Assembly: GCA_044892525.1 (NCBI GenBank)
Contig: CM097885.1
Span: forward strand, 19,780,001-19,844,000
Source: Schmidtea polychroa
Taxonomy: Eukaryota
Length of the DNA stretch: 64,000 bases
Reading direction: 5' to 3'
The notes beneath the pieces were generated by a model that made no database searches, was not told where the DNA came from, and saw only the letters and a program-made list of their open reading frames with translations. Below, one piece after another: positions 1 to 36,969 of the stretch; the stretch's first letter is position 1; each line of letters starts with the position of its first letter. Both the position numbers and the translations under genes were made by a program.

Positions 1-481
1 TTATACGAGACCGATATTTTGATTTCTTCTTTCATTACACTGTTTTCTTCAAATAGATTAAAACGTAATAAATACTCGGTCTCTGTAACAATATTTTTCA
101 ACTTATTGCAACCCATTCGTTTGGCATCTTCAATAGTTTCGAATGTTATTGTAAATGGTTTAAAATCACAACTGATATTTAATCCTTCCTTGTAAAACAT
201 ATAGCAATGCGAATCTAATATTTGATTCGGAATATGATATGTTTTATCATAATTACTGATAACAAAGATACCGCTACATGTTTTCACAATATTCCTTTTG
301 AAATCAATCTTACATTGACTATAAAATGGGAATGTGTTGTACACGAATGTAAAATCTTGCAGTGCAACTTCCCAGTCACCATTTAAAGAAATCGGATTCT
401 GGAGATTGACCATGAATTTACTGGCTTGATTGTCTGGATGAATTAATGGACAACTATTGCTCGGTAAAATAGTATAAAAAT

Positions 482-485
<4 letters not shown>
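1..485 (-). CDS. Polinton minor capsid protein (penton), 5' part, runs off window
   Basis: Manual translation NFYTILPSNSCPLIHPDNQASKFMVNLQNPISLNGDWEVALQDF matches the typical FY.tLPSNS...F...L..PI.L.G.WEVAL penton N-terminus. Its first codon is GTG overlapping the integrase stop (GTGA). Confidence 0.8.
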
Positions 486-1651
<1,166 letters not shown>

Positions 1652-1712: not shown

Positions 1713-2258
1713 TTATGATTGATTTCCTACAACTCCACCTAATAATGATAATGCCAGAGGTATCAATGCACCAATAAATCCACCTTGTTGTTTATATATA
1801 ATTTTACTCATTTGCTTACGAATTTTATTATTTACTAAAGATAACAATGGTTTCCTATGTTTGCTCAATAAATGCTTTTTTGATTTACTGATTTTAATTT
1901 TGCCTTTGACTACTTTAAGTATAATATTGAGTAAATCATCGACAACAAAATTTGGGAATGATTGCAATATATTCATTCTTTTCATACTCGGGGCCTTTAA
2001 CAATGCATTAAAAAATGGAAAACTGCGATGATTTTTAACTACTTTTTTACTGATTTTACGTTTACTGGTTTTATGTTTACTGGTTTTACGTTTAGGTTTA
2101 GGATTTTTCGAAATAAGATTCATTGCAGAAAAATTTTCAGTAACAAGTTTTTTAGATGGTGTATAACTAGTTGTTGGTGGAACTTTTGGAACTTTAATAC
2201 TCTTTCTAATACTTTTTCTTAATTTCCTAATATTTTTCACCCTTGCTTTTAGAAACAT
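1713..2258 (-). CDS. Basic virion core protein with pX/cupiennin-like C-terminal peptide
   Basis: Very Lys/Arg-rich; ends QQGG|FIGALIPLALSLLGG, resembling an adenain cleavage site followed by an amphipathic helix as in adenovirus pX. Confidence 0.7.
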   Translation of the reverse strand: MFLKARVKNIRKLRKSIRKSIKVPKVPPTTSYTPSKKLVTENFSAMNLISKNPKPKRKTSKHKTSKRKISKKVVKNHRSFPFFNALLKAPSMKRMNILQSFPNFVVDDLLNIILKVVKGKIKISKSKKHLLSKHRKPLLSLVNNKIRKQMSKIIYKQQGGFIGALIPLALSLLGGVVGNQS

Positions 2259-2276: not shown

Positions 2277-2903
2277 TCAACTTTGTTTATAAACCATGGC
2301 ACCTTTTGGGTTGAAAATATCTGTTTTTACTCGTAAATCATCGGGACATTGTTGTGTGAAATCAAGAAATATATATCCATGAGGTATTTTTGTAGCATCT
2401 TGAAATGCACTGATAAGAAAATTACGATTGTTAGGGTATGCTTGACGTGCAAGAAAATCAATCACTGTTGCATCTCTAGGATTCTTGAAAATAACTAAAT
2501 ATTGTATATTTAAATTACGTGTTCGATGTGCACCACCTTGATGAAATAGATTTTGTGTTATGAAAATAACTGTTACACCAACATGTCTGCTGATTTTAGT
2601 AAATAAATTATTAAAATCCTTTTCTTTATTAGCTTCTTGATACAAATCATCGATAATAATGACATCACCTTTCTTTAATCGGCTGGACCAGTTTTTATCG
2701 AATCCCTTTACTATTTTCATGTTTTTTAATTTACAGAAACTTGATTGAGTTAATCCATGTTCTTCATCAGCACCCCTATGCCAATAAATCCTGTTGAATT
2801 TTGATTTGAATAAATTTGATTTTAGTAATTTACAAACAAATAATGTTTTTCCACTACCACTCGGACCAACGATTTGGTATACTGCATCATTTCTTAATTC
2901 CAT
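2277..2903 (-). CDS. Polinton A32/FtsK-like packaging ATPase
   Basis: Walker A GPSGSGKT, Walker B IIIDD, SRH, ITQNLF, FKNPRD, PHGYIFLD motifs. Confidence 0.93.
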   Translation of the reverse strand: MELRNDAVYQIVGPSGSGKTLFVCKLLKSNLFKSKFNRIYWHRGADEEHGLTQSSFCKLKNMKIVKGFDKNWSSRLKKGDVIIIDDLYQEANKEKDFNNLFTKISRHVGVTVIFITQNLFHQGGAHRTRNLNIQYLVIFKNPRDATVIDFLARQAYPNNRNFLISAFQDATKIPHGYIFLDFTQQCPDDLRVKTDIFNPKGAMVYKQS

Positions 2904-3002: not shown

Positions 3003-3440
3003 ATGTTAGCAAATATAAATTATCGAGGAAATTTTGATGTATCGAATATGAGGTTTCCACCAGGGAAACCTCAGCAAATTATCGATAGAAGCGGGAAATA
3101 CCCGATAATATTTTTCAAGACTGGTAAATGTAGAATCATGGGATGTAAGAAACCCTTGGATATTAATAAATTACAATATCGAATAAATAATATTAAAATC
3201 CAATCAATTACCATTACTATGGATATGGGACATAGTATCAATCTATATAACATGTCGAAAAAATGTGATTGTATGTTTGAACCGGAATTGTTTCCGGCAC
3301 TAAGACTAATAAAATATAACCCTATATGTGTCAACGTGTTTGCTAGTGGAAAGGTTGTCATGCTGGGGTTGAGAAATTTGGAGTATAGGGAATTTGTTGA
3401 CAATGTTCGAAATGAGATAATTTCATTGGTCAATTTCTAA
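3003..3440 (+). CDS. TATA-binding-protein-like protein
   Basis: Two TBP repeats: IIFFKTGKCRIMGCK and FEPELFPAL...VNVFASGKVVMLG (compare TBP YEPELFPGL...LIFVSGKVVLTG). TATATAAA at 2969-2976. Confidence 0.85.
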   Translation: MLANINYRGNFDVSNMRFPPGKPQQIIDRSGKYPIIFFKTGKCRIMGCKKPLDINKLQYRINNIKIQSITITMDMGHSINLYNMSKKCDCMFEPELFPALRLIKYNPICVNVFASGKVVMLGLRNLEYREFVDNVRNEIISLVNF

Positions 3441-3515: not shown

Positions 3516-3922
3516 ATGTACAACATACAAAGTTCCGCAATCACCTCAATGAAAGAGCATGCAAATTATGGTAATTTCAAATTTTTATTATTACATTAAT
3601 ATATATTTTTACAGATGAATGTCAATCAATTATCCTGCAAAGATTATGCTTCTATTATCCAGAATTAAATGAAATTCTACAAGATAGAGATCCAGCTATC
3701 ATTCCGGATTTGGTATACAACCAAACACGAATCTGGATATTCGATATAATAAACACCTTTCTATGGGATGTCAAGATAGGAAGGGTGATGAAAGAAATGA
3801 AACCAGAGGCTCCTTGCATTTTCGGATGTAGCTGCTGCAATTTCCGTTATCAACAATATGTTGAATGGTGTTTGGTGAAGACTCTGAGAAATCACCACTC
3901 GAGTCAGATTGTATCAAAATAA
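3516..3922 (+). CDS. Spliced Polinton accessory gene of unknown function (FLWDVK...CxxC...HH family)
   Basis: Exon 3516-3570, GT-AG intron 3571-3614, exon 3615-3922 in frame. Homologous to ORFs at 29698 and 33444. Confidence 0.75.
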
Positions 3923-3936
3923 ATTTTTATGTTGAA

Positions 3937-4676
3937 TTGTTTTGTTTTTGTAAATCGAAAAAATAGAAATAGAAATAATAATAGAAATAGTAATAATATA
4001 AGTAATAATAGTAATATTAGAAATAATAATAATAAAAACAATATTTATAATAAAAACATTAATGCAACATTAATGCAAATGACATACAATTTAAACAAAG
4101 ACATGCAGCAATCTGATTGGTTGATAAACATTAGTCATAGGTATAAAATCCCTTTAACATTTCATTTTAATCATAATTCACGATGACAAAGAAAATTTCA
4201 AGCACTGAAAAGCCGAAAGTTGTTCCAGAACTTGTACAACCTGTTCAAATGTTCCACAACTATAAAATGTATTTTTTAAAAGAAGAAATCAATATTGTTT
4301 TGTTTTTGTAAATCGAAATAATAGAAATAGAAATGATAATAGTAATAGAAATAGTAATAATAGTAATAATATTAGAAATATAAATAATAATAGTAATAAC
4401 AATATTAGAAATAATAATAATAAAAACAATATTTATAATAATAAAAACACTAATGCAACATTAATGCAAATGACATGCAATTTAAACAAAGACATGCTAT
4501 AATCTGATTGGTTGATAGGCATGAGTCAAAGGTATATAAACCCTGTAACATTTCAATTTATTCATTATTCACGATGACCAAGAAAATTTCAAGCACCGAA
4601 AAACCTAAAGAAATGGTACAACCAGTTCAAATGTTCCACAACTACAAAATGTATTTTTTGAAAGAAGAAATCAATA
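3937..4676 (+). repeat. Tandem duplication (~360-380 bp unit) of the promoter and 5' end of the 4574 gene
   Basis: ATTGTTTTGTTTTTGTAAATCGAAA at ~3937 and ~4294; MTKKISSTEKPK encoded at 4183 (truncated copy) and 4574. Confidence 0.9.
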
Positions 4677-4984
4677 TGAAATTGGTTGCACCCGTCAAGC
4701 TAATTCCAACTAAATTTCAATTCTTTTCCGGCACGCTTTCAATGATAGATGTTAAAACTATTGATGATGTTTTTAAACGGATAGATTCGAATCTATCGTG
4801 TAATCAACATGCCTGGTTCAACAACAGATACGCAAGATTTTACGATGCTTTTGATGAAATCGGTTTCAAAGAAAATGAAAATTGGTATATAACAATTGCA
4901 ATCCAGGGATATAAAGTTGATAATAATGATGTATATTCCCCTATTTGGAAAATTATGTCTGCTAGACTATCACAAATATTTTAA
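4574..4984 (+). CDS. Polinton accessory hypothetical protein
   Basis: ATG at 4574 downstream of CCAAT and TATA motifs; open to 4984; AATAAA follows. Confidence 0.65.
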   Translation: MTKKISSTEKPKEMVQPVQMFHNYKMYFLKEEINMKLVAPVKLIPTKFQFFSGTLSMIDVKTIDDVFKRIDSNLSCNQHAWFNNRYARFYDAFDEIGFKENENWYITIAIQGYKVDNNDVYSPIWKIMSARLSQIF

Positions 4985-5116: not shown

Positions 5117-5484
5117 ATGAAAATGACTGCAGAAAAAGGTTAACATGATTAATTAAATACCGAATTATTTATTATTTAGAATTATTAATCAACTTTTTGT
5201 TGGAAAAATTAGCAGAAATAGCTGGTGTAAAAATTGAGGGCATATTATCTGTTACAAATGCATTAAATATCGGCTGGGTAGTTGAGAGTCAAGATTCAGG
5301 ATTTGACGATCAGGAAGAAACTCAAGAAACCGATACTCAAGAAATTGATGACGAAATCTATGAACCTATAGATGAACCTATAGAGGAACCTAAAGATAAT
5401 ATTACGAATGATTGTATTGATCATGTCGTTGAAAATATAATGAAATGTGGAGATGACGACTGCGAATGTGTTAATAAATTTTAG
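5117..5484 (+). CDS. Spliced acidic accessory protein
   Basis: Exon 5117-5138, GT-AG intron 5139-5179, in-frame exon to 5484 giving MKMTAEKELLINFLLEKLAE...DSGFDDQEE... Confidence 0.6.
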
Positions 5485-5602
5485 TTAATTATTGTTTGTA
5501 AATTTATTTAAAATAACTATATTAATTTTATTTAAAAAAAAAATCAAAATAACTAGATTAATTTTTTATTTAAAAATCTATTTAAAAAACAAAATAACTA
5601 CA

Positions 5603-6123
5603 TTAATTTTTATTTAAAATTCGAGATATAACATACAAAATAGCAACACCTGTTGCAAGTTTTACATAGGTTTTAAACTTCATTTTATGCTCGTCGATTT
5701 CTTTTGCATTTCGAGCGAGTTGGTTCAATACACCCCATCCGCCATTGGCTTCTATCTATGGTGTAAACTTGGACTTGATTATCTAGAAAATAAATATTAT
5801 TAAAATATAGATTATAAAAGTATTACTTCTTGAGACCACTGATAATAGTGCTCGGAGTCCCATAAACTTTTTTCTATGATGATTTTAATATAAGCAAACA
5901 CTACTATTATTCGGGTCCACTTCATCTCGTCATCACATAGACAATTAAATATCCGGTGAAAAAAAAACTTTTTTGTTTCTAGGCAATCTGACTTGAGCAT
6001 ATCTTCGTAATTGATGTGATTCCCTTCGATAATTTTTTCTGTCCGATCGACCAAGTAACTGAGGCTTTCCATGATGTTCTTGTTGATAACTTCGCTTAAA
6101 ATATTTTCAATAAAATGAGACAT
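5603..6123 (-). pseudogene. Bcl-2-family protein, spliced, with one nonsense codon
   Basis: BH1-like LCDDEMKWTRIIVVFAY; intron 5783-5826; BH2-like P*IEANGGWG (TAG at 5756-5758 where Trp is expected); C-terminal hydrophobic anchor VKLATGVAILYVISRILNK. Confidence 0.8.
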
Positions 6124-6348
6124 TTCTAAAATAATTTAAAATATAATGTTTTATTTATACTAATACCGTATGATTCTGATTGGTTGATAGACTATAAATG
6201 TAAAAGAAAGGTTTTGATTTGATACACCAGGAAAACTATATTCATATTGCTAATTATTATAACAAGTGTGTGCTAACACAATACTATAAATTTTATAATA
6301 TTCGACTATGTTTTTAGTTAACCATGATTTGTGATAGAAATTTGAAAT

Positions 6349-6459
<111 letters not shown>

Positions 6460-6540
6460 TTTGTTAATGATGAGATTCGTGTGGATCCTGATGACAGAAC
6501 TTTTGAAAGAATTTTGTTAGAAATTTTATATTTTTATTGT

Positions 6541-6589
<49 letters not shown>

Positions 6590-6689
6590 CCTTGTGAGTT
6601 GTTGAGCGTGAGCAGTACCCTTTTGAGCATTACCCATAGGGGGACAGAATATTTTGTCGGATAAACTCGGAGTATATAGATTAATAGTC

Positions 6690-6722
<33 letters not shown>

Positions 6723-6859
6723 TTCGCTTCAAAATAAGCTATGGATCGATGAAATAAGTTGATGGGGACGATAACTTTTGGCAGGCCAAATAGTAGGTCA
6801 CCGCGAGCACAAAGACATTAGAAATAATAATATTTTTAAAAATAATAATAATTATATAT

Positions 6860-7094
6860 CATTGATGAGTCATATGTATTTGTTCTCAAGTCGACCTTGA
6901 ATGCTTGATGAGTCATATGTCTTTGTTCTCAAGTCGACCTTGAATGCTTGATGAGTCATCGGATGAGTCATATGTCTTTGTTCTCAAGTTGAAAAAAAAA
7001 ATTTTTTTAATTTTTTCCGGCGGGGGGGGAGGTGTTGTAAAAAATGTCTTTGTGCTGGCGGTGACCTGTTTTCGCGGTGACCAATCCATCTACT
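6860..7094. repeat. Polinton terminal region with repeated GATGAGTCAT units and two GCGGTGACC repeats
   Basis: ~43-bp tandem unit at 6864-6990; TTTTTTCCGG-G-run; GCGGTGACC twice before the terminal TCTACT. Confidence 0.75.
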
Positions 7095-9570
7095 GACTTT
7101 CTATAACGTTTTTGCCTCTTCGGTATTCGCTCTAAAATTTATCACCCGGATGCTAGCGATTACATCCACCATCAATGTACTTCTGAAAATCGAACCATCG
7201 TCCTCAAGTCACAGACACTAGTGATAGATAATCTCTCTCTGACGGGTGGGTAAACATTTTACAACAAATTTACCAGTAGTACTCACTTTGAGCTCTAGAC
7301 AATTATCGCCAACGATAACAGTACGCGACGACCTGTAGTAGCCAGCTCATCATCAGCCGACGGGAATAGCCGATAATGTTAAAAATGAAATGATAACTTA
7401 TCGTTTCGTTGATAGGAAATGTCGAATGAATGAGTTAACAATCATTGTCCTGAGTCAACATCTTGAAAAGAAATTAGATAACAAAGTCAACTTACCCAGT
7501 GCTCTACCATGTTGTCAGTCACTTGAGATGATAAACCTGATTTCGATCTGTCTACTGCTGCTTGTCGGAAAAATCAGTTACGTAATCTATCCTACCCTGT
7601 CATAATACACACACACACTTCAGCCACTCATACATAATGCCGGTGTACAAATGAACCCACGAACTGGGCAGAACATGTTGGTGATACAACGATCACGTGA
7701 GACATGCATGTCTTCAGAAATGGTGATACGATAAGTAGGAGCGAGGAATCGGAGTTCCTCAACTCAACTAGCTACATAATCTCTTTCCATCGTACAGACA
7801 GTTACTCGAGATAACAGTTAATTCATAATTACAACTGCGACCAGTAGGATTAACACCCCCAACTAGCTAATCATAACATACAACCACGAATGAATATCTC
7901 TATGACAACCAAATACAGCGCGTAATTCAAATTAATTAGAACTCTAATTTGGTATTCAATTTTCTAACATCAATTTTACTTGTTTTATTTTATTGGCGTA
8001 GATGAAAATATGAGTGGCCATGGGTCGCCAGGGATTATAATTTCGTTTTGAAATTTTATGTATATTTATCTCGATAAAAAATCCGAGACAGTGACGGGGA
8101 AGGGGAGAGTAAAGATCTGATGAGGGGGTGAGGCCTAGATAGGGGGTATTTCTTAAGTACATCCCCCGTTCTCTTTTCACAAACGATCACATGAAGGAAT
8201 TGGAATGTTTGTAATGGAATGACTGTGAATGAGGATGGATGATGAAGTCTGTGGGTTGTTGTTGAGCGAATGATGGATGAATGGCCAACATTGTGTTCTA
8301 AAAATCGACTAACCCATTCTAACAAATGTTTCTGAATCGATATAAAACTAATTTGACTTTTTAGATGACGACATCGTCCAACCATACTAAAGAACTCCGT
8401 CCTTGCTTCTCCTGCGCCGATAAAAACGCGGACATCGCGCAGCTCCATCTGTATATCGGGGCTCTAAAGAAGCTAATTGACCTTTACGAAGGGACGTGGT
8501 TCTCCCCACCACAAATGAAGGAGGAGAGAAGCAAAATACTGCGACTAGAGCATTGCAGGGATAGCCTGCTGGAGGAGAGTCGTTGCCAACGACTCACAAT
8601 CAAAGCCCAGTCGGAAGCCCTCCACAAGGTCTATACGGAGGTAGAATCAGCCAAGCGGGTACGGGAATTTCCCGTCGTGGATGGGACAAACGTTTTCCCA
8701 CTCCACCACCAGTTATCCCGACCGTCTGCCACGAGTTGCCAAGGACATAGCTCTCATTTACCACCCGTACCAGCCCCAATCTTGTCAGGTTATTTGCCAA
8801 TGGCCGGCGGCTCGTCTGATCCCATTCTGGCCCCAGTTCTTGTGGCCTCGGTCAATACCCCGGTAGTGGAAGCTAATCAGCCATCCCGGAAACGAAGACG
8901 CCCAACTCGAGCGGCAAAGAACCAAAAGCGCAGAGAGGCGATGGCAGCCCTAGAAGCGTCGCTATCGGCGGCGAAGTCGACGATCCAGGAAATCTCTTCT
9001 ACTCATACTGTCCCCTCCAAGGAAGTTTTTCGAGTGGTACCGGCCGAAGGTATCAAATTCGTCTCAGACCACCGTCTACCGGTAGATATCGATGAAATAC
9101 TCGCGGAAGGAGACGTTTTCTAATAATACGACTTGCATCGATCCCGATTCTTTCGATCAAATGACAAATCCACCTGTACATTTAGACTAGCTAATTTTAC
9201 ATTCGTATATGTGCATTTGACTTGCATGCTGACAGTTTATGACTATAGAGTATCATTTTTGTGTTGAGCTTAATATAATTGAGTGATTTTCTTCGTTGGA
9301 TACTAATAGTTGTCGACAGGTATGACTGAGTGATGTGAGTGGATAATGAACGTGATGTAGAGTGTAGACAAATCTTATCGATGGTCGTTCCCTTGGACCA
9401 GGATCGGACCAAGTTACCTATGGGAATACGGGTAAGTCCTTCTGAGGCACCTTAGAACCTGAACCGTGAAGGGGTTAGGAGTAGTCTTAAGGCAGAGGCT
9501 CACCTGCTAACCTATTCCGACCCGTGTGGGCAGTACCAACGTGAAACATCACCACGGGCTCATGCGTGGG
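7095..9570 (-). mobile_element. Diverged, truncated relative of the giant-LTR family (copy D); boundaries approximate
   Basis: Contains the EGTWFSP ORF and a diverged terminal module (CCGTGAA, GCTCAC, CAGTACCAACGT, ACGGG) at ~9445-9570. Confidence 0.55.
8365..9123 (+). CDS. Coiled-coil/basic hypothetical protein of the giant-LTR family
   Basis: 252-aa ORF; EGTWFSP motif shared with the ORF at 49752-50147; NLS-like RKRRRP. Confidence 0.6.
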   Translation: MTTSSNHTKELRPCFSCADKNADIAQLHLYIGALKKLIDLYEGTWFSPPQMKEERSKILRLEHCRDSLLEESRCQRLTIKAQSEALHKVYTEVESAKRVREFPVVDGTNVFPLHHQLSRPSATSCQGHSSHLPPVPAPILSGYLPMAGGSSDPILAPVLVASVNTPVVEANQPSRKRRRPTRAAKNQKRREAMAALEASLSAAKSTIQEISSTHTVPSKEVFRVVPAEGIKFVSDHRLPVDIDEILAEGDVF

Positions 9571-9579: not shown

Positions 9580-11992
9580 ATAATCATTATATCATATTTT
9601 GTGACAATTATTCATTTTTAGTGAACTTGTTGTGCATATCAAAGCTTCAATTATAGCATTTGTCACGACTGAGATAATGAGGCCATCCCCATGGAAGGCC
9701 GAACCGGTCAATTTGACCGGTATCTTGAAACACACAAGAAAGTCACACATAATCATCTTATATACTAGAAAATATAAAACCAAATATAATTTACACACAA
9801 CCGAAGCATTTAACAGTCATTTGGGAATGTTTTCCACAGTAAACTTTACTACATACATGGCATATAGCTCCGGATTTGTTATCACAATGAGGAGCAGAAC
9901 AAGTTTTTCGCTTCTTTAATTTTGGTTGTTCAGAACAGAGTTCAACAGAGATGGGACTTGCTGTTCGACGGCTTTTGAACTCCTCACAAAGAGATGTAGC
10001 TAATTCAAAAATAAAATCCCTTCTTTTTATAGTTGATCCCGTAGCATCTTTGAAAATAACATGAGCGTTGAGAGCTGCTTTATCAAGCAAATCATAGAAA
10101 GTAGCGACTGGCCATCTTGCTGTTGCGGCTTTACTGCTGTATAAACGCAACATGCTATCCATGGTATCTACAGCTGTCTTATCTTTGTTATAAAAGTGTA
10201 TCATTTCAGGCTTTCTCTTTTCGTCAGATCTCACACTAGCAGTAGAATGGAATGTTGACATGACAATGTCTTTCTTGTCCGATTTGCCTTGATAGGAAAC
10301 AGTGACAGTGTTTTGACACGATAAATGAGTCGATTCAAAAAGAGGCTTTTTCTCCAAGTGAGCTGATGATAAAAAGCGTGAATTTAATCTTACAGTACCA
10401 ACCAATGTTGTTCGATTTACAAGGAGATGTTCAGCTAGTGAGAGACTTGTAAAGAAATTGTCAGTGCAGACATTGTATCCTTTATTGAAAAATGGCTCCA
10501 TTAGTTTCCTTACTACAAAATCACCCAGTCGTAATCCACAGCGTTCGTTTCTATCGTGAGCCCCTAAATATGGCATTTGATTGATTACAAATTTGGTTTT
10601 GACATCACTGAGAATCCAGTATTTGATACCGAATTTATCAGGCTTATTTGGCATAAATTGGATGAAGCAACACCTATTTTTAGCGGCAAAAGTTGCTCGT
10701 CGACAGTAAGGAAGGGATTAGGAGTATAAACTTGAAGACAGTTTGAAACAAACAAGTCAAATATTTCACGAAAATGGGCATATTTATCTTGTTCTACTCT
10801 TTGACGTCGAGAACATTGTTCATCAAAACGAAGAAAGCGCAGTATCTCACGGAAACGGTTCCGAGACATGACTTCTCTGAAGTAAGGAGATCCAAATTGA
10901 GATGACCAGATTGAATTGATAGAATGTCGGCGAAAGCCTAACACACCACGGAGATACAGCAATCCAAGAAAAGCATCTAATTCTTGTAGACTGATACACC
11001 AGTCTGACGAAGCTTCTTTTCCTTTCATAATTGTGTATTTTTGAATTAACTTCAGCATTCCCTCAGAGACTATCAAGCGCCAAGCGCTCAGGAGTGAGTC
11101 AATTTTGCGCTTTGCAAAAGCTTTCACACCAGGTGTTCCACTAAAAATATTGTGCGCAGGGAATCTACCAACACTAATAGCGTGATTGTTTTCTACTCGA
11201 TTCCAAAGAGTGCCATCCCTGCTAGATAAAAGCTGATTTTCTAATGAAGAAATTGAGCTATTGACTGACTCATTGTCACTTTCTAACGAACTTCGATTAT
11301 CATCAGAGTTCCATTCATGTAACTCTTCGTCAGAATCATTTCTTTCGGGCTCATCATCACTTCCCATAGGCTGATCTTCATCTTCGGAGAGAGCAGCGTC
11401 AATATTCCATAGCTTCTGTAAAGCACGTTGAGCAGCAATTCTTTTAGTTGGCATATTTGATTCTAAAATAATGATAAAAACTCCGTCAGTAAAATAAGAA
11501 ACGTCAAATTTATTATTGGATTCTAATGAAAACACGGTTTTATAATGTTTGTTATCCCAAGAAGTTCAAAGATTTTCTATAACAATTATTAGATATTGTC
11601 TTATGACATTTCGTTAAGTTTTTCGTTTGATTCTTTTAATTTACCAAATTTCAAAACTTAGAACTCTTAATGCTTGCTTAATTACACTTTTAATAAGCAC
11701 TATCTTTGAATAAAAGCAAGAGAATATTTATAAACAAGAAATGTTTAAAATAGTGTAGCTTTGTGTCAGCTAAACAAATATTTTTATTTCATTGTTGTAA
11801 GTAGTTTAATAAATTAACTACTGTTAGAATAAAAATAGTTAAATTTTGAAAGCGTGTTAGTAGCACAAAGAAAGTATTGCTAGATGAGTTGCATCATAGA
11901 AATCTCAGCATGAAAATAAGGAGCATATGTGCACCGGTCAAATTGACCGGTTTGGCCTTCCAAGGTATAAAATATTTCCGGCCGTCCTAGTG
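9580..11992 (-). mobile_element. piggyBac DNA transposon 1, left end missing
   Basis: Ends CCTAGTG-TTAA (11993-11996). Internal palindromic repeat ACCGGTCAA(A/T)TTGACCGGT at ~9703 and ~11933. No matching TTAA-CACTAG found on the left. Confidence 0.85.
9791..11454 (-). pseudogene. piggyBac transposase (PGBD4-like), frameshift near 10680
   Basis: MSRNRF, TVDEQL, MPNKPDKFGIK, TDNFFTS, AVDTMD and C-terminal Cys-rich domain, split over two frames. Confidence 0.92.
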
Positions 11993-13895: not shown

Positions 13896-15369
13896 GATTG
13901 ATGTAGCTTACTGAGCTTTCATCATCTAACAGTGCATTTACTTTTATTTTCTTGTTCCCATTTTCCAGGTAAATTGGAATTGTTCTTAAACTAAGGTAAG
14001 GTCTTAGGTTTTTCTCGTTCATCACTTTCTAGGTCAACATCGTGTTGTTACCTTTTTCACTCTCCTCACTGAGTTGTCTTTCATGTAATAATTCGTTGTG
14101 TCTTTGCTTACATCCGGTAACCTTGCAGAAAGATTCTTTACGACATTCCTTGGCCATTTGATTTCTTTTGAAACAATTCCTGCACAGTTTCTTTTCTTCG
14201 ATGACTTTCTTCCTTTTTGAAATTGTGAGTTGCTTGAACTTGTCACATTGGTCTAGGTAATGTTGACCACCACATTTTACATACTCTAAGCTAAAGAGGT
14301 TAGAGTTATTCGCCTGTATGACCGTTCCACTTTTAAATCTGCCATCTGGTTGCCTTGTAAAATGCGTCCGACCTCCTGGATTGAAGCTTTCTCTTCCTCT
14401 AGACACACCTTCTACTCTTGGCCCATCATAAGTCCTGGTGCTTGGTTGAATCCCATACACGACCTCGTAAGTAGATCTTAGGATCTCCGCTTCTTGTTGT
14501 ATCCATCTTCTCAAATCCTCTATTGTCTCCCGCAATTCCTTTTCTATTTTGTCTTTCTTCCATTTATAAACAAGATTTGTAGTTAACTTGCCTAAACACT
14601 TTTAAAAAAGACATCCAGTCTTTAACTCGGATTCTTTCCCAGTGGATTTAAATCGAACGGTGACTGTTTCTAATAATCCAACAAATAAGTCTAAATCCTT
14701 CAAATCTCCTTCTCGAATTGACCTGAACTTGTCCATCTCCTCTAACATTGATAAATATATCCTTTCATCCCCACCATATCGCCTATCCAACTTCTCTTTT
14801 GCCATTTATTAGATCTTTGCCGAATATCCTAGATTTTCAATTAACTTTAATGGCTCTCCGTGAAGGTACTTGTGCAGGTGAAACATCTTTTCAAACTCAT
14901 CACCTTCCGCTTCGTCAACACACGCAGTAAAAGCTGATTTCCATGGTTCGTACTCTTTCATCTTGCCTTCAAAAACAGGTATTGTAACTTTTTGTAGACT
15001 TTCTAGTTTTCTTTTACGCACTGAATTATTTTTCTTGATTGTATCATCATTCTCATTTTCTTTCTCTTCCTTAAAAGATTGATTTGCTTTCTTTTCCATC
15101 AGTGCCCCAATTATTTGATGTTTTTCCTCAATCTCTTGCAGGTCTTTATCTAAGATTGCAGTGATATCCAATCTTTGCAATTTTTTACTAATCGTTCTTA
15201 GATCCCCTAATTCTTCATCTAGACTCTCCTTTTGATCTTCATATTCATCCAACCATTCACTGACTTCTTTCCCATTTATATCATTGAGAATCTTGTTTCT
15301 CAATCTCGTTAATTTTCCTTTTTTCATTCTCTTTTTCCACAGTCCTTCTTCTAAAATCTTTTCGTCATT

Positions 15370-15597
15370 GCCACCGCACAACCTGAGTGACAAATGAGGT
15401 GTCGAACCTACTTGTATGCTATAGTCGTTCAATATTCTTTTATTTTCTAATTACTTTCCTGCGTAGACTAACATTTGATAATTTACCGGAATTCCTTCTT
15501 TGTCTTGAATTTTTTCTTTTACATTTTCAATCGTGTCATTCAATTCAACGTCAAGAGTAATTGTCTTACCAGTAAGAGTTTTGATAAATATTTGCTT
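15370..15597 (-). pseudogene. Ubiquitin-like domain in frame with BEL Gag
   Basis: 76 codons (K)[17 protein letters not shown]...KIQDKEGIP...AGK*LENKRILNDYSIQ..S..HL.LRLCGG continuing directly into Gag. Confidence 0.9.
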
Positions 15598-15930
15598 CCT
15601 ACTTCTCAATCGAAACTCTCCTTCTTCCCCTATTCGACAACAACAAGCCTCAAAACCCATTACTCCGCTCGCCCTCAACCTTGACTTAGCTCGCAAAAAC
15701 GCTGAGCTTCTTATTTTATTTTTATTTAAACGGTTCCCCTGGCTACCCACTTTAAAAAAGTGCTGGGTCCCATAGCAGCACTTTTTCACGCTTGATAGGG
15801 AAGGGAGGATGGTTAATTTTACATATATAAATTCAAAATAAAATGAAAATAGTTTAAAGGAAACCATAATTCACCATTGATCAGCCAAGGCTGTCTCGAC
15901 TGCACCATTGGTGCGTAGCCCCCTAAAGGG

Positions 15931-20096: not shown

Positions 20097-22136
20097 ATGA
20101 ACCTTTCTGATTTTCAGTTCACCAGCTCATTGGAAGCTCCTGTTTATTTGTTAACTGCTTTAAACGAATTGTATGGAATATTTCAAAATGTTTCTACCAC
20201 TTATAGTGAAGACGGACACTTAGTTGAAAATGGTATAAAACTGAATTGTAGTCGAAAGTCTCCAGCCACAGAATATGCTGAATATGCCATTGGTACATAT
20301 TATGTTATTTGTATTATTATATTCTCCATGATGGTCAAACGAGTATCTTATAGACGGAATCAGTGTAACGGCAAGCCAGGACTTGTATTGCCAATGAACA
20401 TGTTAAACAGTCACAATTACATCGTCGAATATACGTTGATTTTTCTCTCTCTATCCGAAGCAATTTACGCTTACATTTTCGGATCGAAGGTAGAAGTTGG
20501 TCAAATAATTCCAATTGGTAATTTTTTTATTAAACTATTTATTGTTATCGTAATTTCAATTCTTTCTTATCCAATTTTTGCCGCCATTACAAGTCGCCAT
20601 TTGTTCGGCTATATTACTGTTATGCTGGCGTCAGTTGCTACTTTTTTTGTCGGGGTTTCAGCAACATATACCTATTGTTTCTGTTTAGTTGGCGTGAAAA
20701 TCGTTCCGTTTTTATTTGCAGCCGTCCTCTACAGTTCGATAGAAATATCTATTGTTGGGATGTTTGTTTGGAAAACTTTTTGTCACATACGAGAAAACGG
20801 ATTTAGAAATCGGGAATTAAACTGCAAATTGTCACCAGATAAGGAAAATTCGAAAATTTATGTTAGAAAATTGTTGAATGAAAATTTAGACTTGAAGTCA
20901 TTGAAAACAGAAAATCCGACAGAAGAAAAAGAAGAAGAATTGAAATTTATTGTCAGCCATTTTAAATGCGACGAATTGAAAAGTAAAATGAAAGAAAAGA
21001 TTTATAGACCGATTCCTGGATTCCGGTTACCACCACGATTGATGATTGGGATGTTTGTGGGGTTGTATTTTGCCTATAGGATTTTCATAGATAATATTTT
21101 GGGGCTGACTCCAATCGCGTGGAAGCTGCTAGATGTAATTAATAAAAAATATTTAACTACACAAACAAATATTAGTCGATCTTTTTACTTAATTTGGAGC
21201 AACTATTCTCTTTATTCAAAGTTGGAAATGCAAAATTCCTTTCGATATCTAACTTTCTCTTACACTCATCTTTTGATTTCCTGTCTTCTTGCAGCAATTT
21301 TTATCGCATTTATTAATTCCATTATTCAGTCCTTATTACTGTTGAGAAATTACCGACTTCATTTTCATCGAATAACGAGAAAGGGGTTCTCAACTTTCAT
21401 GGACATCAAACAAGCCCCTCCTATCTACGATTTGGTACTCGGATATGTTCGATTCAGTGGTTATCAGGCAGCGTATACTTTGTGGGGAATTTTAGTCGTG
21501 ACGTTTTTTATGTTTATAGTTCTTTTTATTGTAATTGGTATAGTTCTGTGGCCTTTATTTTATATTGAAAATTCTTGGCCTAGGACACTTCTGATTAACT
21601 ATGGTCCGGTATTAGTCGTGACGATTATTTTTAATATTATTCAAACAACGATTGTGAAATATTTATTTATCATGGAGAAAGGAACGATTATGGAAGTGAA
21701 CAATCGAAGATCATTTATAATTTATACGCATTGTGCATTTTTTCTAAATGCTATGATGGGAATTTTCAATTCTGTCAAACGTGTCATCATCTGGGTATTT
21801 TCTGGAGTGTTTTGCTTTTCTAGAATAGATTTTAGTTCTTTGCCTGAATACTTGCACGGATTCGACAGTGGATACATGGCATATGTAGGATTTGTTTACA
21901 CAGAACAATATCATTTTAATCCTATTTTACTATGCTTTACGGATCTTCTTGTGGAAACGAAAAAAGAAAAATATATTAATACAAATGAAGATCAACTCGA
22001 CTTATTAAATAATGACAAAGGACGCACGAGGTTTAGAAATTTGTGGCGTGTCGCTGTTACTTTAATAAACAACCACCAGTTGTTATTAGAGAGGAAAAAT
22101 ATTTTGAAAAATAATGTTGTTTGTGATGGAGAATGA
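20097..22136 (+). CDS. STRA6-like / RBP-receptor family multi-pass membrane protein
   Basis: 679-aa uninterrupted ORF with many hydrophobic segments. RID..LP.....D.GY..Y.G...E..H.NP.L..F and R.RN.W..A.TL.NN..L...RK motifs of the STRA6 family. Confidence 0.88.
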   Translation: MNLSDFQFTSSLEAPVYLLTALNELYGIFQNVSTTYSEDGHLVENGIKLNCSRKSPATEYAEYAIGTYYVICIIIFSMMVKRVSYRRNQCNGKPGLVLPMNMLNSHNYIVEYTLIFLSLSEAIYAYIFGSKVEVGQIIPIGNFFIKLFIVIVISILSYPIFAAITSRHLFGYITVMLASVATFFVGVSATYTYCFCLVGVKIVPFLFAAVLYSSIEISIVGMFVWKTFCHIRENGFRNRELNCKLSPDKENSKIYVRKLLNENLDLKSLKTENPTEEKEEELKFIVSHFKCDELKSKMKEKIYRPIPGFRLPPRLMIGMFVGLYFAYRIFIDNILGLTPIAWKLLDVINKKYLTTQTNISRSFYLIWSNYSLYSKLEMQNSFRYLTFSYTHLLISCLLAAIFIAFINSIIQSLLLLRNYRLHFHRITRKGFSTFMDIKQAPPIYDLVLGYVRFSGYQAAYTLWGILVVTFFMFIVLFIVIGIVLWPLFYIENSWPRTLLINYGPVLVVTIIFNIIQTTIVKYLFIMEKGTIMEVNNRRSFIIYTHCAFFLNAMMGIFNSVKRVIIWVFSGVFCFSRIDFSSLPEYLHGFDSGYMAYVGFVYTEQYHFNPILLCFTDLLVETKKEKYINTNEDQLDLLNNDKGRTRFRNLWRVAVTLINNHQLLLERKNILKNNVVCDGE

Positions 22137-23870: not shown

Positions 23871-24109
23871 CACTCATACCTCGCTATACGGCTGCTCTTT
23901 ATACGGCTTTTCGCTATAACGGCCTACTTTAATTACGGCACTTTTTCGATTTACGGCCTAAAATGTTTCGTTATACGGCCAAAAAAAGTGTGGAATTGTA
24001 TATGGAATTGTATCAAAATACTTGATTCGTTATGAGTAGTATGATGTGAGCTCCCCAGATCATGAGCTCCCCGCATCACATATACCCCCTCCCCCCCCGG
24101 AAAAAAAAA

Positions 24110-25210
24110 TTTTTAGAACGATGCCACATATTTTTAGAACTATTACGTAACCAATGCCTAATATTTTTAGAACTATTACGTAATTTTTTAAAATTAAGTG
24201 ATCTGGCGGGCTCACACTTTTTTTCATCCCAAAAATTAATGTTCCCATTATCCGAATTTATTGGACGATACCTCATCTTAAAGCTCAGTCCAAGACCTTT
24301 CGAATGAGCCATAGAAGGTATCATCATTATTATTAACAAAGAGAATGACTCACCCAACGATGTCTAATATTTTTAGAACGATGCCTAATATTTTTCGAAC
24401 TATTGCGTAATCGATGCCTAATATTTTTAGAACGATGTCTAATATTTTTAGAATGGTGCCTCTTATTTTTAGAACTATTACGTAACCGACGCCTAATATT
24501 TTTAGAACTATTACGTAATTTTTTTAAATTAAGTGATCTGGCGGGCTCACACTTTTTTTCATCCCAAAAATTAATGTTCTCGTCAACAAATTTTATTAAC
24601 CGATACCTCATCTTAAAGCTCAGTCCAAGACCTTTCGAATGAGCTATAGGTATCTTATATATCTTTAATAGTTTTAATGTTATTAACATTTGATGACCAC
24701 CATCTTTTCAAAGTTAAATTATTATTATTTTCCAAAATATTATTAAGTGATCTGGCGGGCTCACACTTTTTTTCATCCCAAAAATTAATGTTCCCATTAT
24801 CCGAATTTATTGGACGATACCTCAACTTAAAGCTCAGTCCAAGACCTTTCGAATGATCCATAGAAGGTATCATCATCATTATTATTAACAAAGAGAATGA
24901 CTCACCCAATGACTCACCCAACGATGTCTAATATTTTTAGAACGATGCCTAATATTTTTAGAACGATGCCTAATATTTTAGAACGATGCCTAATATTTTT
25001 AGAACGATGCCTAATATTTTTAGAACTATTACGTAACCAATGTCACATATTTTTAGAACGATTATGTCATATTTTTAGAACGATGCCACATATTTTTAGA
25101 ATGATTACGTCATAATTTTAGAACGATGCCTAATATTTTTAGAATGATTACGTCATAATTTTAGAACGATGCCTAATATTTTTAGAATGGTGCCTCTTAA
25201 TTTTAGAACT
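24110..25210. repeat. Terminal arrays: ~21-bp TTTTAGAACGATGCCTAATATT units and three larger units with AAGTGATCTGGCGGGCTCACAC; mirrored at ~37655-38845
   Basis: Direct reading; accounts for the repetitive HRSKNIR ORFs. Confidence 0.9.
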
Positions 25211-25909
25211 AATAATTTTTGTTTTAATTATCGATTACATAATAATTTAATTTGTTTAAATCGTTGATTATTATTATTATTATTATAATTATAATTATTA
25301 TTATTATATACTCCTAGTCTATCCGACAAAATATTCTGTCCCCCTATGGGTACTGCACACAAGGGTACTACTCACACTCAACAAGTCACAAGGGTACTGT
25401 TCACAAAAGACAAAACTTTCTAAATTCTAAATATTATTCTTTAAATATACACTAAAATTTATTAACACATTCACATTCATCATCTCCACAGTTCATAACA
25501 TTTTCAACAACATGATCTATACAATCCCTATATACACACGGTTCAGTATCCGTAAATTCCTCCATAGGTTCATCAATTTCTTGAATGCTTTCCTCATCAT
25601 CTTGAGTGTTTTCTTCATCTGCTTCATCAAGGTCATTTATTTTTCAAAATATTATTATTTCCAAGGTCATTTATTTTTTCAAGGTCATTTATTTTTTCAA
25701 GGTCATTCCCAAGGTCATTTATTTTTCAAATTCATTTATTTTTTCAAGGTCGCGTGACTCATAAAGGTCATTTTTTTTCAAGGTCATTTTTTAATTTAAT
25801 TTTTTGTTTTAATTAAGTGATCATTAAATTTTTCAAGGTCATTTATTTTTTCAAAATATTATTTTTTCAAGGTCATTTATTTTTCAAGGTCATTTATTAT
25901 TATTATTAA

Positions 25910-25956
<47 letters not shown>

Positions 25957-26470
25957 CTCTTAGTCTATTCGACAAGATATTTTGTCCCCCTAAGGGTATT
26001 GCTCACAAGGGCACTACTCACATGGGTAATTGTCACAAGGGTACTACTCACATTCAACATGTCGTAAATTATTTTCAAATACAAGTTCAAAGTATTATTA
26101 TTTATTTTAACACGCACGGGAGTTATTATTATTATTATCATATATAGTCAGAGTTTATCCGACAAGATATTCTGCCCCCCTATGTGTACTGCTTACATAG
26201 GTAATGGTTACAAGGGTACTTCTCACATTCAACATGTCTCAAAGGGTATAATATAATTATTATTAAATTCTGACCAACTTAAATCAATGAAGGGGTAGAA
26301 CAAAAATATATTAAGTTGCGGTATTTTAAATTTAAAAATATTTTAAAAACTTATTTTGACACTAAAGTTTACTTAATTAACAAAGACATAATTATTGCAC
26401 ATGCTTTGCATAAATATTATTATTTTTTAAATTTTCAATATTTTCTTTTAAAGTATTAACACGCGCGGGA

Positions 26471-26509
<39 letters not shown>

Positions 26510-26956
26510 GTTAATGAAAAAATCTAAAATATGGTTTACACACACAACCCCTCAACCATTATTATTACTATCAATATTAAAAACCTAAAATATTTTCTAC
26601 ACACACACACATGCACAACTCATTAACCATTATTATTATCATTATTAGTGAAAACCTAAAATAAATTTTTACACACACACACAACCCATTAACCATTATT
26701 ATTATTATTATCAATATTAAAAACCTAAAATATTTTTACACACACACATACAACTCATTAAACTTATTATTATTATTATTATTATTGCAAATATTAGTCA
26801 AAAACCTAAAATATTATTTACACTCACACAACCCATTAACCTATATTATTATTGCAAATATTAGTCAAAAACATAAAAACACTCATAAACCATTATTATT
26901 ATTATCAATATTAAAAACCTAAAATATTTTTTACACACATATACAACCCATTAAAC

Positions 26957-26998
<42 letters not shown>

Positions 26999-29393: not shown

Positions 29394-29457
<64 letters not shown>

Positions 29458-29461
29458 TTAA

Positions 29462-29493
<32 letters not shown>

Positions 29494-29496
29494 TTA

Positions 29497-29587
<91 letters not shown>

Positions 29588-29697
29588 ATCATTTTTAAAC
29601 ATTTTATAATTAAACATTTTTTAAAATTAATACCAGAAATTTATATAAGAATATTTAAGATCATAAAAAAAAAAAAAACAACACGTATTAACAAAAT

Positions 29698-30030
29698 TTA
29701 TTTTCTAAATCCACCCATCGTAGAATAATGGTGGATTCTAAGGGCTTTCGCTATAGCACATTCAATGTATCGGTTATACCGAAATATACATTCATCACAA
29801 CTTTTATTAGCGAGGACCTCGGTTTCCACATTCGTCGGTACCCTGTTCAGCTTCACGTCCCAAAGAAACCTTTGGTATATATCTGATATCCATATATCAG
29901 TTGCTGAATACACGAGTTCGTGGATCTTCTCAGCAGCATGATTTTGAATAACCGGTTCTAGTTCCGGATAAAAGCTCTTCAGTTTATTGAGTATAATATA
30001 TAAATATTCTTCAGGGATGTTTGAATACAT
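29698..30030 (-). CDS. Polinton accessory protein, left-arm copy
   Basis: 110 aa; homologous to the spliced gene at 3516-3922. Confidence 0.75.
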   Translation of the reverse strand: MYSNIPEEYLYIILNKLKSFYPELEPVIQNHAAEKIHELVYSATDIWISDIYQRFLWDVKLNRVPTNVETEVLANKSCDECIFRYNRYIECAIAKALRIHHYSTMGGFRK

Positions 30031-33000: not shown

Positions 33001-33443
33001 ATGTAGAAATATATATTAAAGGGTTCAAGTGGGTGAAATTAGAGTCGGTTGGATTTAGTGAGGGTTCGGTTAAGTTGGGAATACATATTTTCATATAGTT
33101 ATATAACATAATTTTACAAAGTAATAAATATCTATTTGAAAATCAAAATAACACATAAAATAATTACTTAATAAATTCTACATAATCGAATATGTAATCA
33201 GTGGCAGCAACCAGAGTTGGCAACAGATGTTTTCAATGGATGAGCAAAGAAATCCCCCCCCCAGAGATAACAGATAAACAGATGTTTCCCTATGGAAATC
33301 AACCAGAGACAGTCGAGAGGTTGAACATATGGTGTGTTTGAGGAAATGGTATAAATAGTTTTTTAATTTATTTAATATCATTCTCATTATTTTAAAGTAA
33401 GTACTTTATTATTTATTTTATTTAAATTAATGTTTTTATTTAG

Positions 33444-33776: not shown

Positions 33777-33889
33777 ATTTTGTTAATACGTGTTGTTTTT
33801 TTTTTTTTTTTTATGATCTTAAATATTCTTATATAAATTTCTGGTATTAATTTTAAAAAATGTTTAATTATAAAATGTTTAAAAATGAT

Positions 33890-33999
<110 letters not shown>

Positions 34000-34003
34000 T
34001 TAA

Positions 34004-34073
<70 letters not shown>

Positions 34074-36787: not shown

Positions 36788-36853
<66 letters not shown>

Positions 36854-36969
36854 GTTTAATGGGTTGTATATGTGTGTAGAAGATATTTTAGGTTTTCACT
36901 AATATTGATACAAATAATTGTTAATGGGTCGTGTGTGTGTGTGTGTAAACCATATTTTAGATTTTTTTG

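What the first reader, a model, noticed from the sequence alone, without database searches (positions are those of the whole stretch)
5603..6123. Hidden spliced Bcl-2 homologue in the Polinton
Seen: the ORF track shows only exon 1. Splicing the 44-nt intron adds a BH2-like xIEANGGW and a tail anchor. The BH1 reads KWTR rather than NWGR, and the BH2 Trp is a TAG here. Established: adenovirus E1B-19K and herpes/pox vBcl-2 proteins block apoptosis. Inference: the element had a virus-like lifestyle with anti-apoptotic cargo.
Basis: partly seen in the sequence, partly recalled or inferred. Interest (0 to 1): 0.82.

Follow-up and report, generated by a model that had tools for sequence, protein, structure and literature searches.

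The report
Spliced Bcl-2 gene of Polinton family
A virus-like jumping element with over a thousand copies in this animal genome carries a small two-exon gene of the Bcl-2 cell-death family (broken in this copy), which was likely captured from a host gene, likely gained an intron of its own, and likely helps cells survive while the element multiplies.

Summary
On the minus strand, a 99-codon exon (6123-5827), a 44-nt GT-AG intron and a 59-codon exon (5782-5603) encode a Bcl-2-fold protein with a tail anchor. This copy has a premature stop in BH2; 29 of 29 closest sisters are open there. At least 1,209 copies carry the intron and none lacks it. One contig of a probable RNA run joins the exons at the predicted sites in a sister subfamily. 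Both exons are under purifying selection between subfamilies. The closest host gene is single-copy, also lacks the BH1 glycine and has its intron elsewhere; a second Polinton family carries an intronless version. The likely history is capture as mRNA, then intron gain inside the element. Anti-apoptotic activity is untested, and the missing BH1 glycine argues for caution. Bcl-2 cargo is already reported for adintoviruses and intron-bearing cargo for nematode Mavericks; I found no paper on this gene or its new intron. The scan noted the same gene on another copy in this genome. Verdict: new variant of a known kind, interest 0.45.

The parts
5827..6123 (-). Exon 1 of the Bcl-2-like gene, 99 codons (predicted helices 1 to 6 in part; degenerate BH3 region; BH1)
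   Evidence: Pfam PF00452 E=0.0022, 18.9 bits, under cut-off; purifying selection between subfamilies
5911..5922 (-). BH1 core, KWTR; no glycine at the third place
   Evidence: KWTR in 70 of 75 copies, 1 of 14 element rows has glycine there, host gene reads RWSR
5783..5826 (-). 44-nt GT-AG spliceosomal-type intron, phase 0, inside predicted helix 6
   Evidence: 1,209 genomic matches with the gap, none without; junction contig in run X6 for a sister subfamily
5603..5782 (-). Exon 2, 59 codons: BH2, linker, tail anchor, stop
   Evidence: purifying selection between subfamilies
5756..5758 (-). Premature stop inside BH2; this copy is a pseudogene
   Evidence: absent from 29 of 29 closest sisters; present in 3 of 75 loci overall
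5615..5665 (-). Predicted C-terminal membrane anchor, 17 residues, followed by a 3-residue basic tail
   Evidence: mean hydropathy 1.74; 1.25 to 2.11 in six other families and 1.53 in the host gene
5595..5614 (-). Polyadenylation signal (5614-5609) overlapping the last codons, and likely cleavage site near 5595
   Evidence: sequence; one X6 contig aligns 5595-5659 with 1 difference and carries a poly(A) end
3..536 (-). Start of the putative minor capsid gene of the carrying Polinton (continues upstream of the window)
   Evidence: position between integrase and major capsid gene in three elements; no Pfam hit; name inferred from gene order
482..1651 (-). Integrase with C-terminal chromodomain; broken here by a microsatellite insertion and an in-frame stop
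   Evidence: rve E=1e-5 and Chromo E=6e-5, both under cut-off; contiguous 389-aa frame in the neighbouring copy
1713..2258 (-). Basic 181-aa ORF, likely core-protein-like (name inferred)
   Evidence: no Pfam hit
2277..2903 (-). Packaging ATPase
   Evidence: Pox_A32 E=2e-7, over cut-off
3003..3440 (+). Short TBP-like gene of the accessory block
   Evidence: PF00352 E=1e-15
3516..3922 (+). Accessory gene with a predicted 44-nt GT-AG intron at 3571-3614
   Evidence: same-phase gap of 44, 41 and 52 nt in three other copies; no RNA test
4574..4984 (+). 136-aa accessory gene shared with the intronless-Bcl-2 family
   Evidence: poly(A) end behind 5011 in X6
5117..5484 (+). Acidic accessory gene convergent with the Bcl-2 gene, predicted 41-nt GT-AG intron at 5139-5179
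   Evidence: acceptor read by eye, the script's register was one codon off; no RNA test
6124..7094 (.). Upstream region, microsatellites and right terminal repeat region; element end at 7094
   Evidence: terminal pentamer at 7090-7094 like those of whole sister elements

Best explanation
This is a broken copy of a two-exon Bcl-2-family gene carried by a high-copy Polinton/Maverick family; the gene was likely captured as mRNA from a host Bcl-2 paralogue, likely gained a new intron inside the element, and in working copies likely acts as a membrane-anchored inhibitor of host cell death. Shown: gene structure, copy number, Polinton setting, Bcl-2 sequence match, selection on both exons between subfamilies, a spliced contig for a sister subfamily, a closest host gene with a different intron. 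Predicted: Bcl-2 fold and tail anchor. Inferred: after splicing, the 158-aa protein would insert by its tail into mitochondrial or ER membrane and restrain host Bax/Bak-like effectors, by a remodelled groove or by its membrane helix, so that stem or germ cells survive the DNA-damage signal of linear DNA replication and integration. Unspliced RNA would give a 103-aa product without BH2 or anchor.
For: Fold: AlphaFold model of a sister read-through, pLDDT 85.3, eight helices; the top 30 of 48,161 chains are all Bcl-2 family, best Z 12.3, rmsd 2.5 over 124 residues, first unrelated row 5.8; Foldseek top hits Bcl-xL. Selection: between subfamilies dN/dS 0.02-0.23 in exon 2 and 0.03-0.13 in exon 1 where estimable; L002 against L113, second codon positions 130 of 132 identical, third 89 of 132. 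Intron: fixed sites with lengths of 38 to 60 nt across families whose exon 1 is as little as 32-45% identical to the window's. Origin: the single-copy host gene at C1:268,544,056 is the best host match for 14 of 14 element rows, 54-93 bits against at most 40; it has a donor right after GGW and a tail exon about 3 kb on; 9 of 9 host-type genes read are open across the helix-6 site; a second Polinton family is intronless at both sites. Intron-bearing rows form one clade, 99/96. The BH3 region lacks the Gly-Asp pair (that Bax/Bak-type effectors need it is recalled), which argues against an effector. Viral Bcl-2 proteins inhibit Bax and Bak (PMC11209288, passages).
Against: No functional or binding test. 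The BH1 glycine is missing in 13 of 14 element rows, and its loss abolishes pro-survival activity in Bcl-2, KSHV Bcl-2 and F1L (PMC2836074, passages). The model was built on an alignment holding many Bcl-2 relatives and includes 15 intron-derived residues, so it leans to that fold. The junction rests on one contig of depth 18 in a run only guessed to be RNA, with 30 of 57 loose letters shown, and in a sister subfamily; X6 also holds contigs that run into the intron. Among the 27 closest copies there is no purifying signal: shared exon-1 differences are 14 non-synonymous to 1 synonymous. Tree support for grouping with the host gene falls to 21/23 when three long rows are kept, and without them the clade also holds four unnamed short Bcl-2 proteins. 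One capture or two is unresolved (AU p=0.15), and the direction host-to-element is inferred from intron position only. Other host rows were partial, which favours the fuller row in the bit-score comparison.
Confidence: 0.55

Rival explanations
1. Same gene and history, but the protein does not block apoptosis. It keeps a non-canonical job of its host parent at a membrane, such as control of autophagy, ER calcium or innate signalling.
For: BH1 glycine and BH3 Gly-Asp are absent in both element and host parent. Viral Bcl-2 proteins also act on Beclin 1 and autophagy (PMC11209288, passages).
Against: BH1 tryptophan and arginine, BH2 and the tail are kept; the closest solved folds are pro-survival members, though a shared fold shows no function.
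Confidence: 0.22
2. The protein is pro-death or a decoy: it titrates the host's own pro-survival Bcl-2 proteins or permeabilises membranes late in an infection cycle, or serves as one half of a selfish killer system.
For: A BH1 without glycine could give a dominant-negative form (inference from PMC2836074). Nematode Maverick cargo gave rise to a toxin-antidote element (10.1101/2022.07.12.499685, abstract start and passages).
Against: No effector-type BH3; more than 1,200 copies, many open, and a polyadenylated transcript end are hard to square with a constitutive killer.
Confidence: 0.1
3. The direction is reversed or the intron is older: the gene family lived in Polintons first and the single-copy host gene is a domesticated copy, or the helix-6 intron came from a lost host paralogue.
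For: The tree does not root the host gene against the element genes; the element families differ more among themselves (exon 1 of A against D about 22-25%) than D does from the host gene (39-48%).
Against: The host gene has its intron straight after GGW like the other host-type genes read, lies among host genes with no Polinton protein in 30 kb, and has a 50-60% identical full-length relative in another data set (P0006).
Confidence: 0.1
4. The gene is neutral baggage and the 44-nt gap is a frameshifting insertion, not an intron.
For: This copy is broken, and young copies show no purifying signal.
Against: Selection on both exons between subfamilies, fixed GT-AG sites at variable non-triplet lengths, an exon-exon contig, no gap-free DNA copy.
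Confidence: 0.03

Closest known systems
Adintovirus (animal Polinton/Maverick) Bcl2 accessory genes, Starrett et al. 2021, PMC8502044 (passages and the text of Supplementary Fig. S2 read; Fig. S1 slides not readable)
   Same: Bcl-2 homologue in the accessory region of an integrase- and PolB-bearing element with capsid, ATPase and protease genes.
   Different: The paper names them in one sentence and in map labels; no planarian, no donor gene and no splicing is mentioned in the text searched. Here the gene is spliced, traced to a likely host donor, and present in over 1,200 copies.
Intron-bearing Maverick cargo of nematodes (wasp/msft-1, krma), 10.1101/2022.07.12.499685 (passages)
   Same: Cargo near a terminal repeat, with introns, beside intronless core genes.
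   Different: There the introns are read as host sequence taken up with the gene. Here the host intron is absent and a different intron is shared by many element families.
Intact vertebrate Mavericks, PMC8097293 (passages)
   Same: Same core module, 6-bp target duplication, similar termini.
   Different: That paper reports no introns in genes of intact elements; here one accessory gene has RNA support for splicing and two more have predicted introns.
Viral Bcl-2 proteins: adenovirus E1B-19K, herpesvirus, poxvirus and iridovirus members (PMC11209288, PMC2836074, passages)
   Same: Short Bcl-2 fold with tail anchor and no long loop; structural matches to A179L, CNP058, GIV66, M11, KsBcl-2, BHRF1 at Z 8.7-11.8.
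   Different: No close kin: best BFVD match E=0.014, E1B small T-antigen E=2.0. No BH1 glycine. Function untested.
Burro giant LTR retroelements of planarians with a BCL2-like domain (PMC6431247, passages)
   Same: A mobile element with a Bcl-2-like domain; a like element is in this genome.
   Different: There the domain is part of a polyprotein, scores 31 bits to the host donor against 54-93 for Polinton rows; a separate capture is likely but a shared origin was not rejected (AU p=0.20).

Membership tests
Bcl-2 family (Pfam PF00452) | Score over the curated Pfam cut-off | tested here: met
   Sister read-throughs with X: 34.4, 34.6 bits, 32.2 bits for a close sister, cut-off 31.4. This copy's exon 1 alone: 18.9.
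Bcl-2 family (Pfam PF00452) | Helical bundle around a central hydrophobic helix | tested here: met
   Predicted model, pLDDT 85.3; top 30 structural matches all Bcl-2 family, best Z 12.3. Model of a sister copy, built with family members in the alignment.
Bcl-2 family (Pfam PF00452) | BH2 motif and C-terminal tail anchor | tested here: met
   Present in sisters; interrupted by a stop in this copy.
Canonical pro-survival Bcl-2 proteins | NWGR-type BH1 with its glycine | tested here: not met
   KWTR in 70 of 75 copies; glycine in 1 of 14 element rows; 33 of 40 external rows with a readable motif have it.
Canonical pro-survival Bcl-2 proteins | Binds BH3 motifs and blocks mitochondrial permeabilisation | not tested
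   No binding prediction was run and no assay is possible with these tools.
Bax/Bak-type effectors | BH3 with Leu-x-x-x-Gly-Asp (motif recalled) | tested here: not met
   The matching helix has valine at the glycine place, and aspartate only in some copies.
Polinton/Maverick (adintovirus) | Protein-primed PolB and retroviral-type integrase | tested here: met
   PF03175 E=4e-31 on a related element's ORF, 50-60% identical ORFs in the neighbouring copy and in whole family B; rve E=1e-5. No PolB could be tied to this truncated copy itself.
Polinton/Maverick (adintovirus) | Packaging ATPase, adenovirus-type protease, double jelly-roll capsid | tested here: met
   Pox_A32, Peptidase_C5; capsid call rests on Atlas neighbours at 0.98 with PF21738 on 24-30% of members, recognition 2120 under the 2300 mark, so it is the weakest of the three.
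Polinton/Maverick (adintovirus) | [quoted passage not shown] | tested here: met
   Met in 2 of 2 whole sister elements examined. This copy shows only its right end at 7094.
Polinton/Maverick (adintovirus) | Forms virions | not testable with these tools
   No particle data; one viral-contig scan with a distant relative found nothing.
Spliceosomal intron | GT-AG ends, pyrimidine-rich 3' part, removal seen in RNA, absent gap-free DNA copy | tested here: met
   67 of 75 GT-AG by register, the other 8 shifted by indels beside the intron; one junction contig in a probable RNA run; 0 gap-free matches against 1,209.

The most novel reading that the evidence does not exclude
A Polinton lineage turned a captured host Bcl-2 into a spliced gene by gaining its own intron, and has kept that intron across many diverged families because it is a control element: it gates a membrane-anchored survival protein by splicing and, on the other strand, serves as the polyadenylation signal of the convergent gene. 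With over a thousand copies, the element would then supply a survival factor to the host's own stem cells, testable by family-wide RNAi.
Probability: 0.15. Interest if true: 0.8.

Novelty: new variant of a known kind. Interest (0 to 1): 0.45.

Why it matters
No Polinton accessory protein of this kind was shown to work in the papers I read, and intact vertebrate Mavericks are described as intronless. This family offers a traceable case: likely donor gene, an intronless sister lineage, an intron-bearing clade and more than 1,200 copies in one genome of what is likely a planarian, an animal where RNAi is routine (recalled). It makes two questions testable: whether Polintons manipulate host cell death as adenoviruses do, and how new spliceosomal introns arise and persist in virus-like elements. 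It also warns that ORF-only annotation misses spliced Polinton cargo; the three database matches to this family (P0003-P0005) end just past the donor site.

Tried and rejected
Exon 2 alone: no Pfam hit. No RNA holder listed on record for the stretch; run X7 laid nothing. The 44-nt joint was not among the joints listed; the junction showed up only as a loose end. X1 contigs that stop exactly at 5782 and 5827 were taken as a weak hint only. Searches of 5.8 billion proteins found only three exon-1 read-through products. Viral contigs: nothing for P0008; alignment A1 gave no usable pattern. Metagenome contigs: one 32% match, not followed up. BFVD gave no match at E<=0.001. A processed intronless DNA copy as source of the junction was tested and not found in this assembly; the run may come from another individual. 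Loss of the intron in family D from within the H/I group was weakly rejected (AU p=0.033; group named after seeing earlier trees). Grouping the element genes with host gene L031 or with Bcl-xL-like rows was rejected (AU p=5e-5 and 5e-11). The careful mixture tree of 74 rows did not finish; smaller trees used 31 and 28 of the 74 rows. Of 12 distant copies checked for neighbours within 10 kb, 6 had Polinton proteins (F174, F173, F175, H177, H182, a PolB piece at I179), H180 only a 24-residue piece of an accessory gene, and 5 none, so families I and J are not shown to be Polinton-borne. The other end of this copy was not found in 40 kb upstream. No complex prediction was run: a BH3-groove pair tends to pass by likeness, and no unbroken natural reading of this gene covers BH2. 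Literature searches listed no paper on a planarian Polinton Bcl-2 or on intron gain in it; subscription journals, Repbase and unread supplements may hold one.

Full report
1. What is there. On the minus strand an ATG at 6123 opens 99 codons to a GT donor at 5826. An AG acceptor ends at 5783, 44 nt on, phase 0. The next 59 codons hold the BH2-like GGW segment and a hydrophobic tail and end at 5603. This copy has a premature stop at exon-2 codon 9. BH1 reads KWTR. An AATAAA overlaps the last codons, and one contig of run X6 aligns 5595-5659 with one difference and ends in poly(A).

2. It is one of very many copies. The window lies at C1:19,780,001 of a 781-Mb assembly with four large contigs. 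A DNA search gave 1,816 first-look candidates, 40 scored, 96-100% identical. Of the 29 sisters fetched, 29 are open at the stop codon and 23 are open in both exons with a start. A tight pattern of exon end, GT, gap, AG, exon start matched 1,209 places, control 0. The same flanks with a gap of 0-30 nt matched 6 places, all with 25-30 nt left, none gap-free. The host is likely a planarian flatworm; this is my inference from genome size, base composition and Burro-like LTR elements (PMC6431247), not a label from any call.

3. The gap is an intron. Among 75 loci with both exons the gap is 39 to 60 nt apart from one copy with an exon deletion; 67 are GT-AG by register and 8 are shifted by indels beside the intron. 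In 16 distant loci, 14 have GT at the same place, and the script found the matching acceptor in 8, at 38-54 nt; the other 8 are decayed or cut short. Exons abut without a gap against relatives that lack the intron. One X6 contig (132 nt, depth 18) aligns to the first 56 nt of exon 2 and goes on with 57 letters, of which the 30 shown equal the end of exon 1 of subfamily B in six loci. X6 is only guessed to be RNA, though its poly(A) ends fit that. No joint was listed for the window's own subfamily, and X6 also has contigs that run into the intron.

4. The product is a Bcl-2-family protein. Exon 1 alone is under the Pfam cut-off. Natural read-throughs of sisters whose intron keeps the frame, with X at the acceptor stop, pass it: 34.4 and 34.6 bits against 31.4. 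One of them alone finds only Bcl-2-family chains among the 60 PDB sequences shown, best E=0.008; a profile that includes the host gene reaches E=4e-9. An AlphaFold model of a sister read-through has pLDDT 85.3 and eight helices, and its 30 best structural matches are all Bcl-2 family, best Z 12.3 at 2.5 A over 124 residues, first unrelated row 5.8 (Foldseek agrees). The alignment behind the model held many Bcl-2 relatives, so the fold result is not independent of the sequence result. The tail has mean hydropathy 1.74 over 17 residues.

5. Selection. Between subfamilies dN/dS is 0.02-0.23 in exon 2 and 0.03-0.13 in exon 1 where dS is not saturated; two close pairs are not significant. The simple method inflates dS in AT-rich codons, so raw counts are safer: L002 against L113 keeps 130 of 132 second positions and 89 of 132 third positions. 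Among the 27 closest copies there is no purifying signal (exon-1 shared differences 14 non-synonymous, 1 synonymous). This fits selection on the active lineages and decay of inserted copies. The intron itself is 39 of 40 identical across the same comparison, which is unexplained; copies are mosaic, so recombination may contribute.

6. The carrier. The window holds the putative minor capsid start, a broken integrase, a basic ORF, a packaging ATPase, a TBP-like gene and three more accessory genes before the Bcl-2 gene, then an element end at 7094. Upstream, the copy is cut inside the major capsid gene by the end of another copy. Two whole sister elements of about 16.5 kb have PolB, protease, capsid, integrase and ATPase genes, terminal repeats and 6-bp duplications. 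One carries the spliced gene, the other an intronless one. Distant families F and H lie beside Polinton genes in 5 of 7 loci checked; I, J and G are not shown to.

7. Origin. A single-copy gene at C1:268,544,056 is the best host match for 14 of 14 element rows. It sits among host genes, has a donor straight after GGW and a tail exon about 3 kb on that is 60% identical to the tail of an unnamed full-length relative, P0006. Its BH1 reads RWSR, so the missing glycine was inherited. None of 9 host-type genes read is interrupted at the helix-6 site, and the element genes read run on past GGW. Intron-bearing rows form a clade at 99/96 when three long rows are left out, at 54/95 when they are kept, and at SH-aLRT 96 in the quick tree of all 74 rows. 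The link to the host gene is well supported only as a wider clade that also holds four unnamed short Bcl-2 proteins (100/99). One capture or two is open. The simplest reading is capture without the host intron, likely through mRNA, then one intron gain in the element; a lost host paralogue or a reversed direction is not excluded.

8. How it likely works. Splicing gives a 158-aa tail-anchored Bcl-2 protein; without splicing a 103-aa product lacks BH2 and anchor. By analogy with E1B-19K and other viral Bcl-2 proteins (PMC11209288, passages) it would restrain Bax/Bak-like effectors and keep cells alive while linear DNA is copied and integrated. I put this at 0.55. Against it, the BH1 glycine whose loss abolishes pro-survival activity in Bcl-2, KSHV Bcl-2 and F1L (PMC2836074, passages) is missing. 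A non-apoptotic role (0.22), a pro-death or decoy role (0.1), a different history (0.1) and neutral baggage (0.03) are the rivals. The cargo alone does not prove a virion stage.

9. What is known. Starrett et al. note adintovirus Bcl2 homologues in one sentence and in map labels (PMC8502044; the slides of Fig. S1 could not be read and may bear on this). Nematode Mavericks carry intron-bearing cargo read as host-derived (10.1101/2022.07.12.499685). Intact vertebrate Mavericks are reported intronless (PMC8097293). Introners are found in dinoflagellate Polinton-like elements (PMC12166617). Planarian Burro retroelements carry a BCL2-like domain (PMC6431247). PMC11071296 mentions anti-apoptotic homologues in adintoviruses; PMC10748475 has nothing on this. 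I read passages of these papers, not whole texts. Nine searches listed no paper on this gene. The scan itself noted the same gene on another copy of this genome (e1-7879924) and Bcl-2 cargo of Mavericks in other genomes; these are not independent evidence.

10. Verdict. A real, spliced, selected Bcl-2 cargo gene, seen here in a dead copy. The kind is known; the likely host donor, the intronless sister lineage and the likely intron gain are the new parts. New variant of a known kind, interest 0.45. The boldest reading not excluded, a regulatory intron and an element-supplied survival factor for host stem cells, has probability about 0.15 and would merit 0.8.

Noticed in passing
window 5783-5826 and sister loci L002, L113, L116, L121: The intron is far better conserved than third codon positions between subfamilies: 39 of 40 inner bases against 85-89 of 132; the 160 nt upstream are also about 95% identical. 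Differences come in blocks, so recombination may explain part. One X6 contig has a plus-strand poly(A) end behind 5805, just after an AATAAA at 5789-5794 that is the antisense of the intron's pyrimidine tract.
   Followed up: partly
window 3571-3614 and 5139-5179: Two more short GT-AG gaps in accessory genes of the same element, kept in phase in three other copies each. No RNA test.
   Followed up: partly
window 3003-3440: Short TBP-like gene in the Polinton, also in the intronless-Bcl-2 family at 55% identity. Already noted by earlier findings of the scan.
   Followed up: partly
G000:C2:50,146,176-50,162,686 (L078-L080): Whole 16.5-kb Polinton of a second family with an intronless 144-aa Bcl-2 gene closer to the host gene than to the window's gene; terminal repeats and 6-bp duplication present.
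   Followed up: yes
L221:4687-9999, L222:3-3842: Giant LTR element frame with a Bcl-2-like domain, fusion glycoprotein, protease, then RT, RNase H and integrase, like Burro; dozens of such matches.
   Followed up: partly
G000:C1:19,761,500-19,787,094: The window's copy is cut inside the major capsid gene where the end of another, oppositely oriented copy abuts it; the two are 99.5% identical in the middle and 79% at the Bcl-2 genes.
   Followed up: partly
window 24087-38869: Very large nested inverted repeat, arms up to 2.4 kb at 99%, with few long ORFs; may be one of the gene-less palindromic elements that earlier findings describe.
   Followed up: no
window 20097-22136 (+): Single 679-aa frame matching the retinol-binding-protein receptor family PF14752, E=1e-59; likely a host gene.
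   Followed up: no
window 9791-11565 (-) and 57331-58572 (+): piggyBac-type transposase pieces, PF13843.
   Followed up: no
window 14029-15870 (-): Ubiquitin-like domain (PF00240, E=6e-15) in line with a coiled, gag-like frame and a zinc-knuckle-like frame; the gag reading is by eye.
   Followed up: no
window 8365-9123 (+): 252-aa ORF with no Pfam hit in a GC-richer block; similar ORFs recur near several unrelated loci, so it is likely borne by another repeat.
   Followed up: no
window 59910-60461 (+): Proteasome-subunit match (PF00227) preceded in frame by 45-nt tandem repeats.
   Followed up: no
P0008 cluster: Unnamed 161-aa full-length Bcl-2 with tail on contigs of up to 11-14 kb, grouping near the Polinton genes; could be cargo of another element. 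Context could not be fetched.
   Followed up: partly
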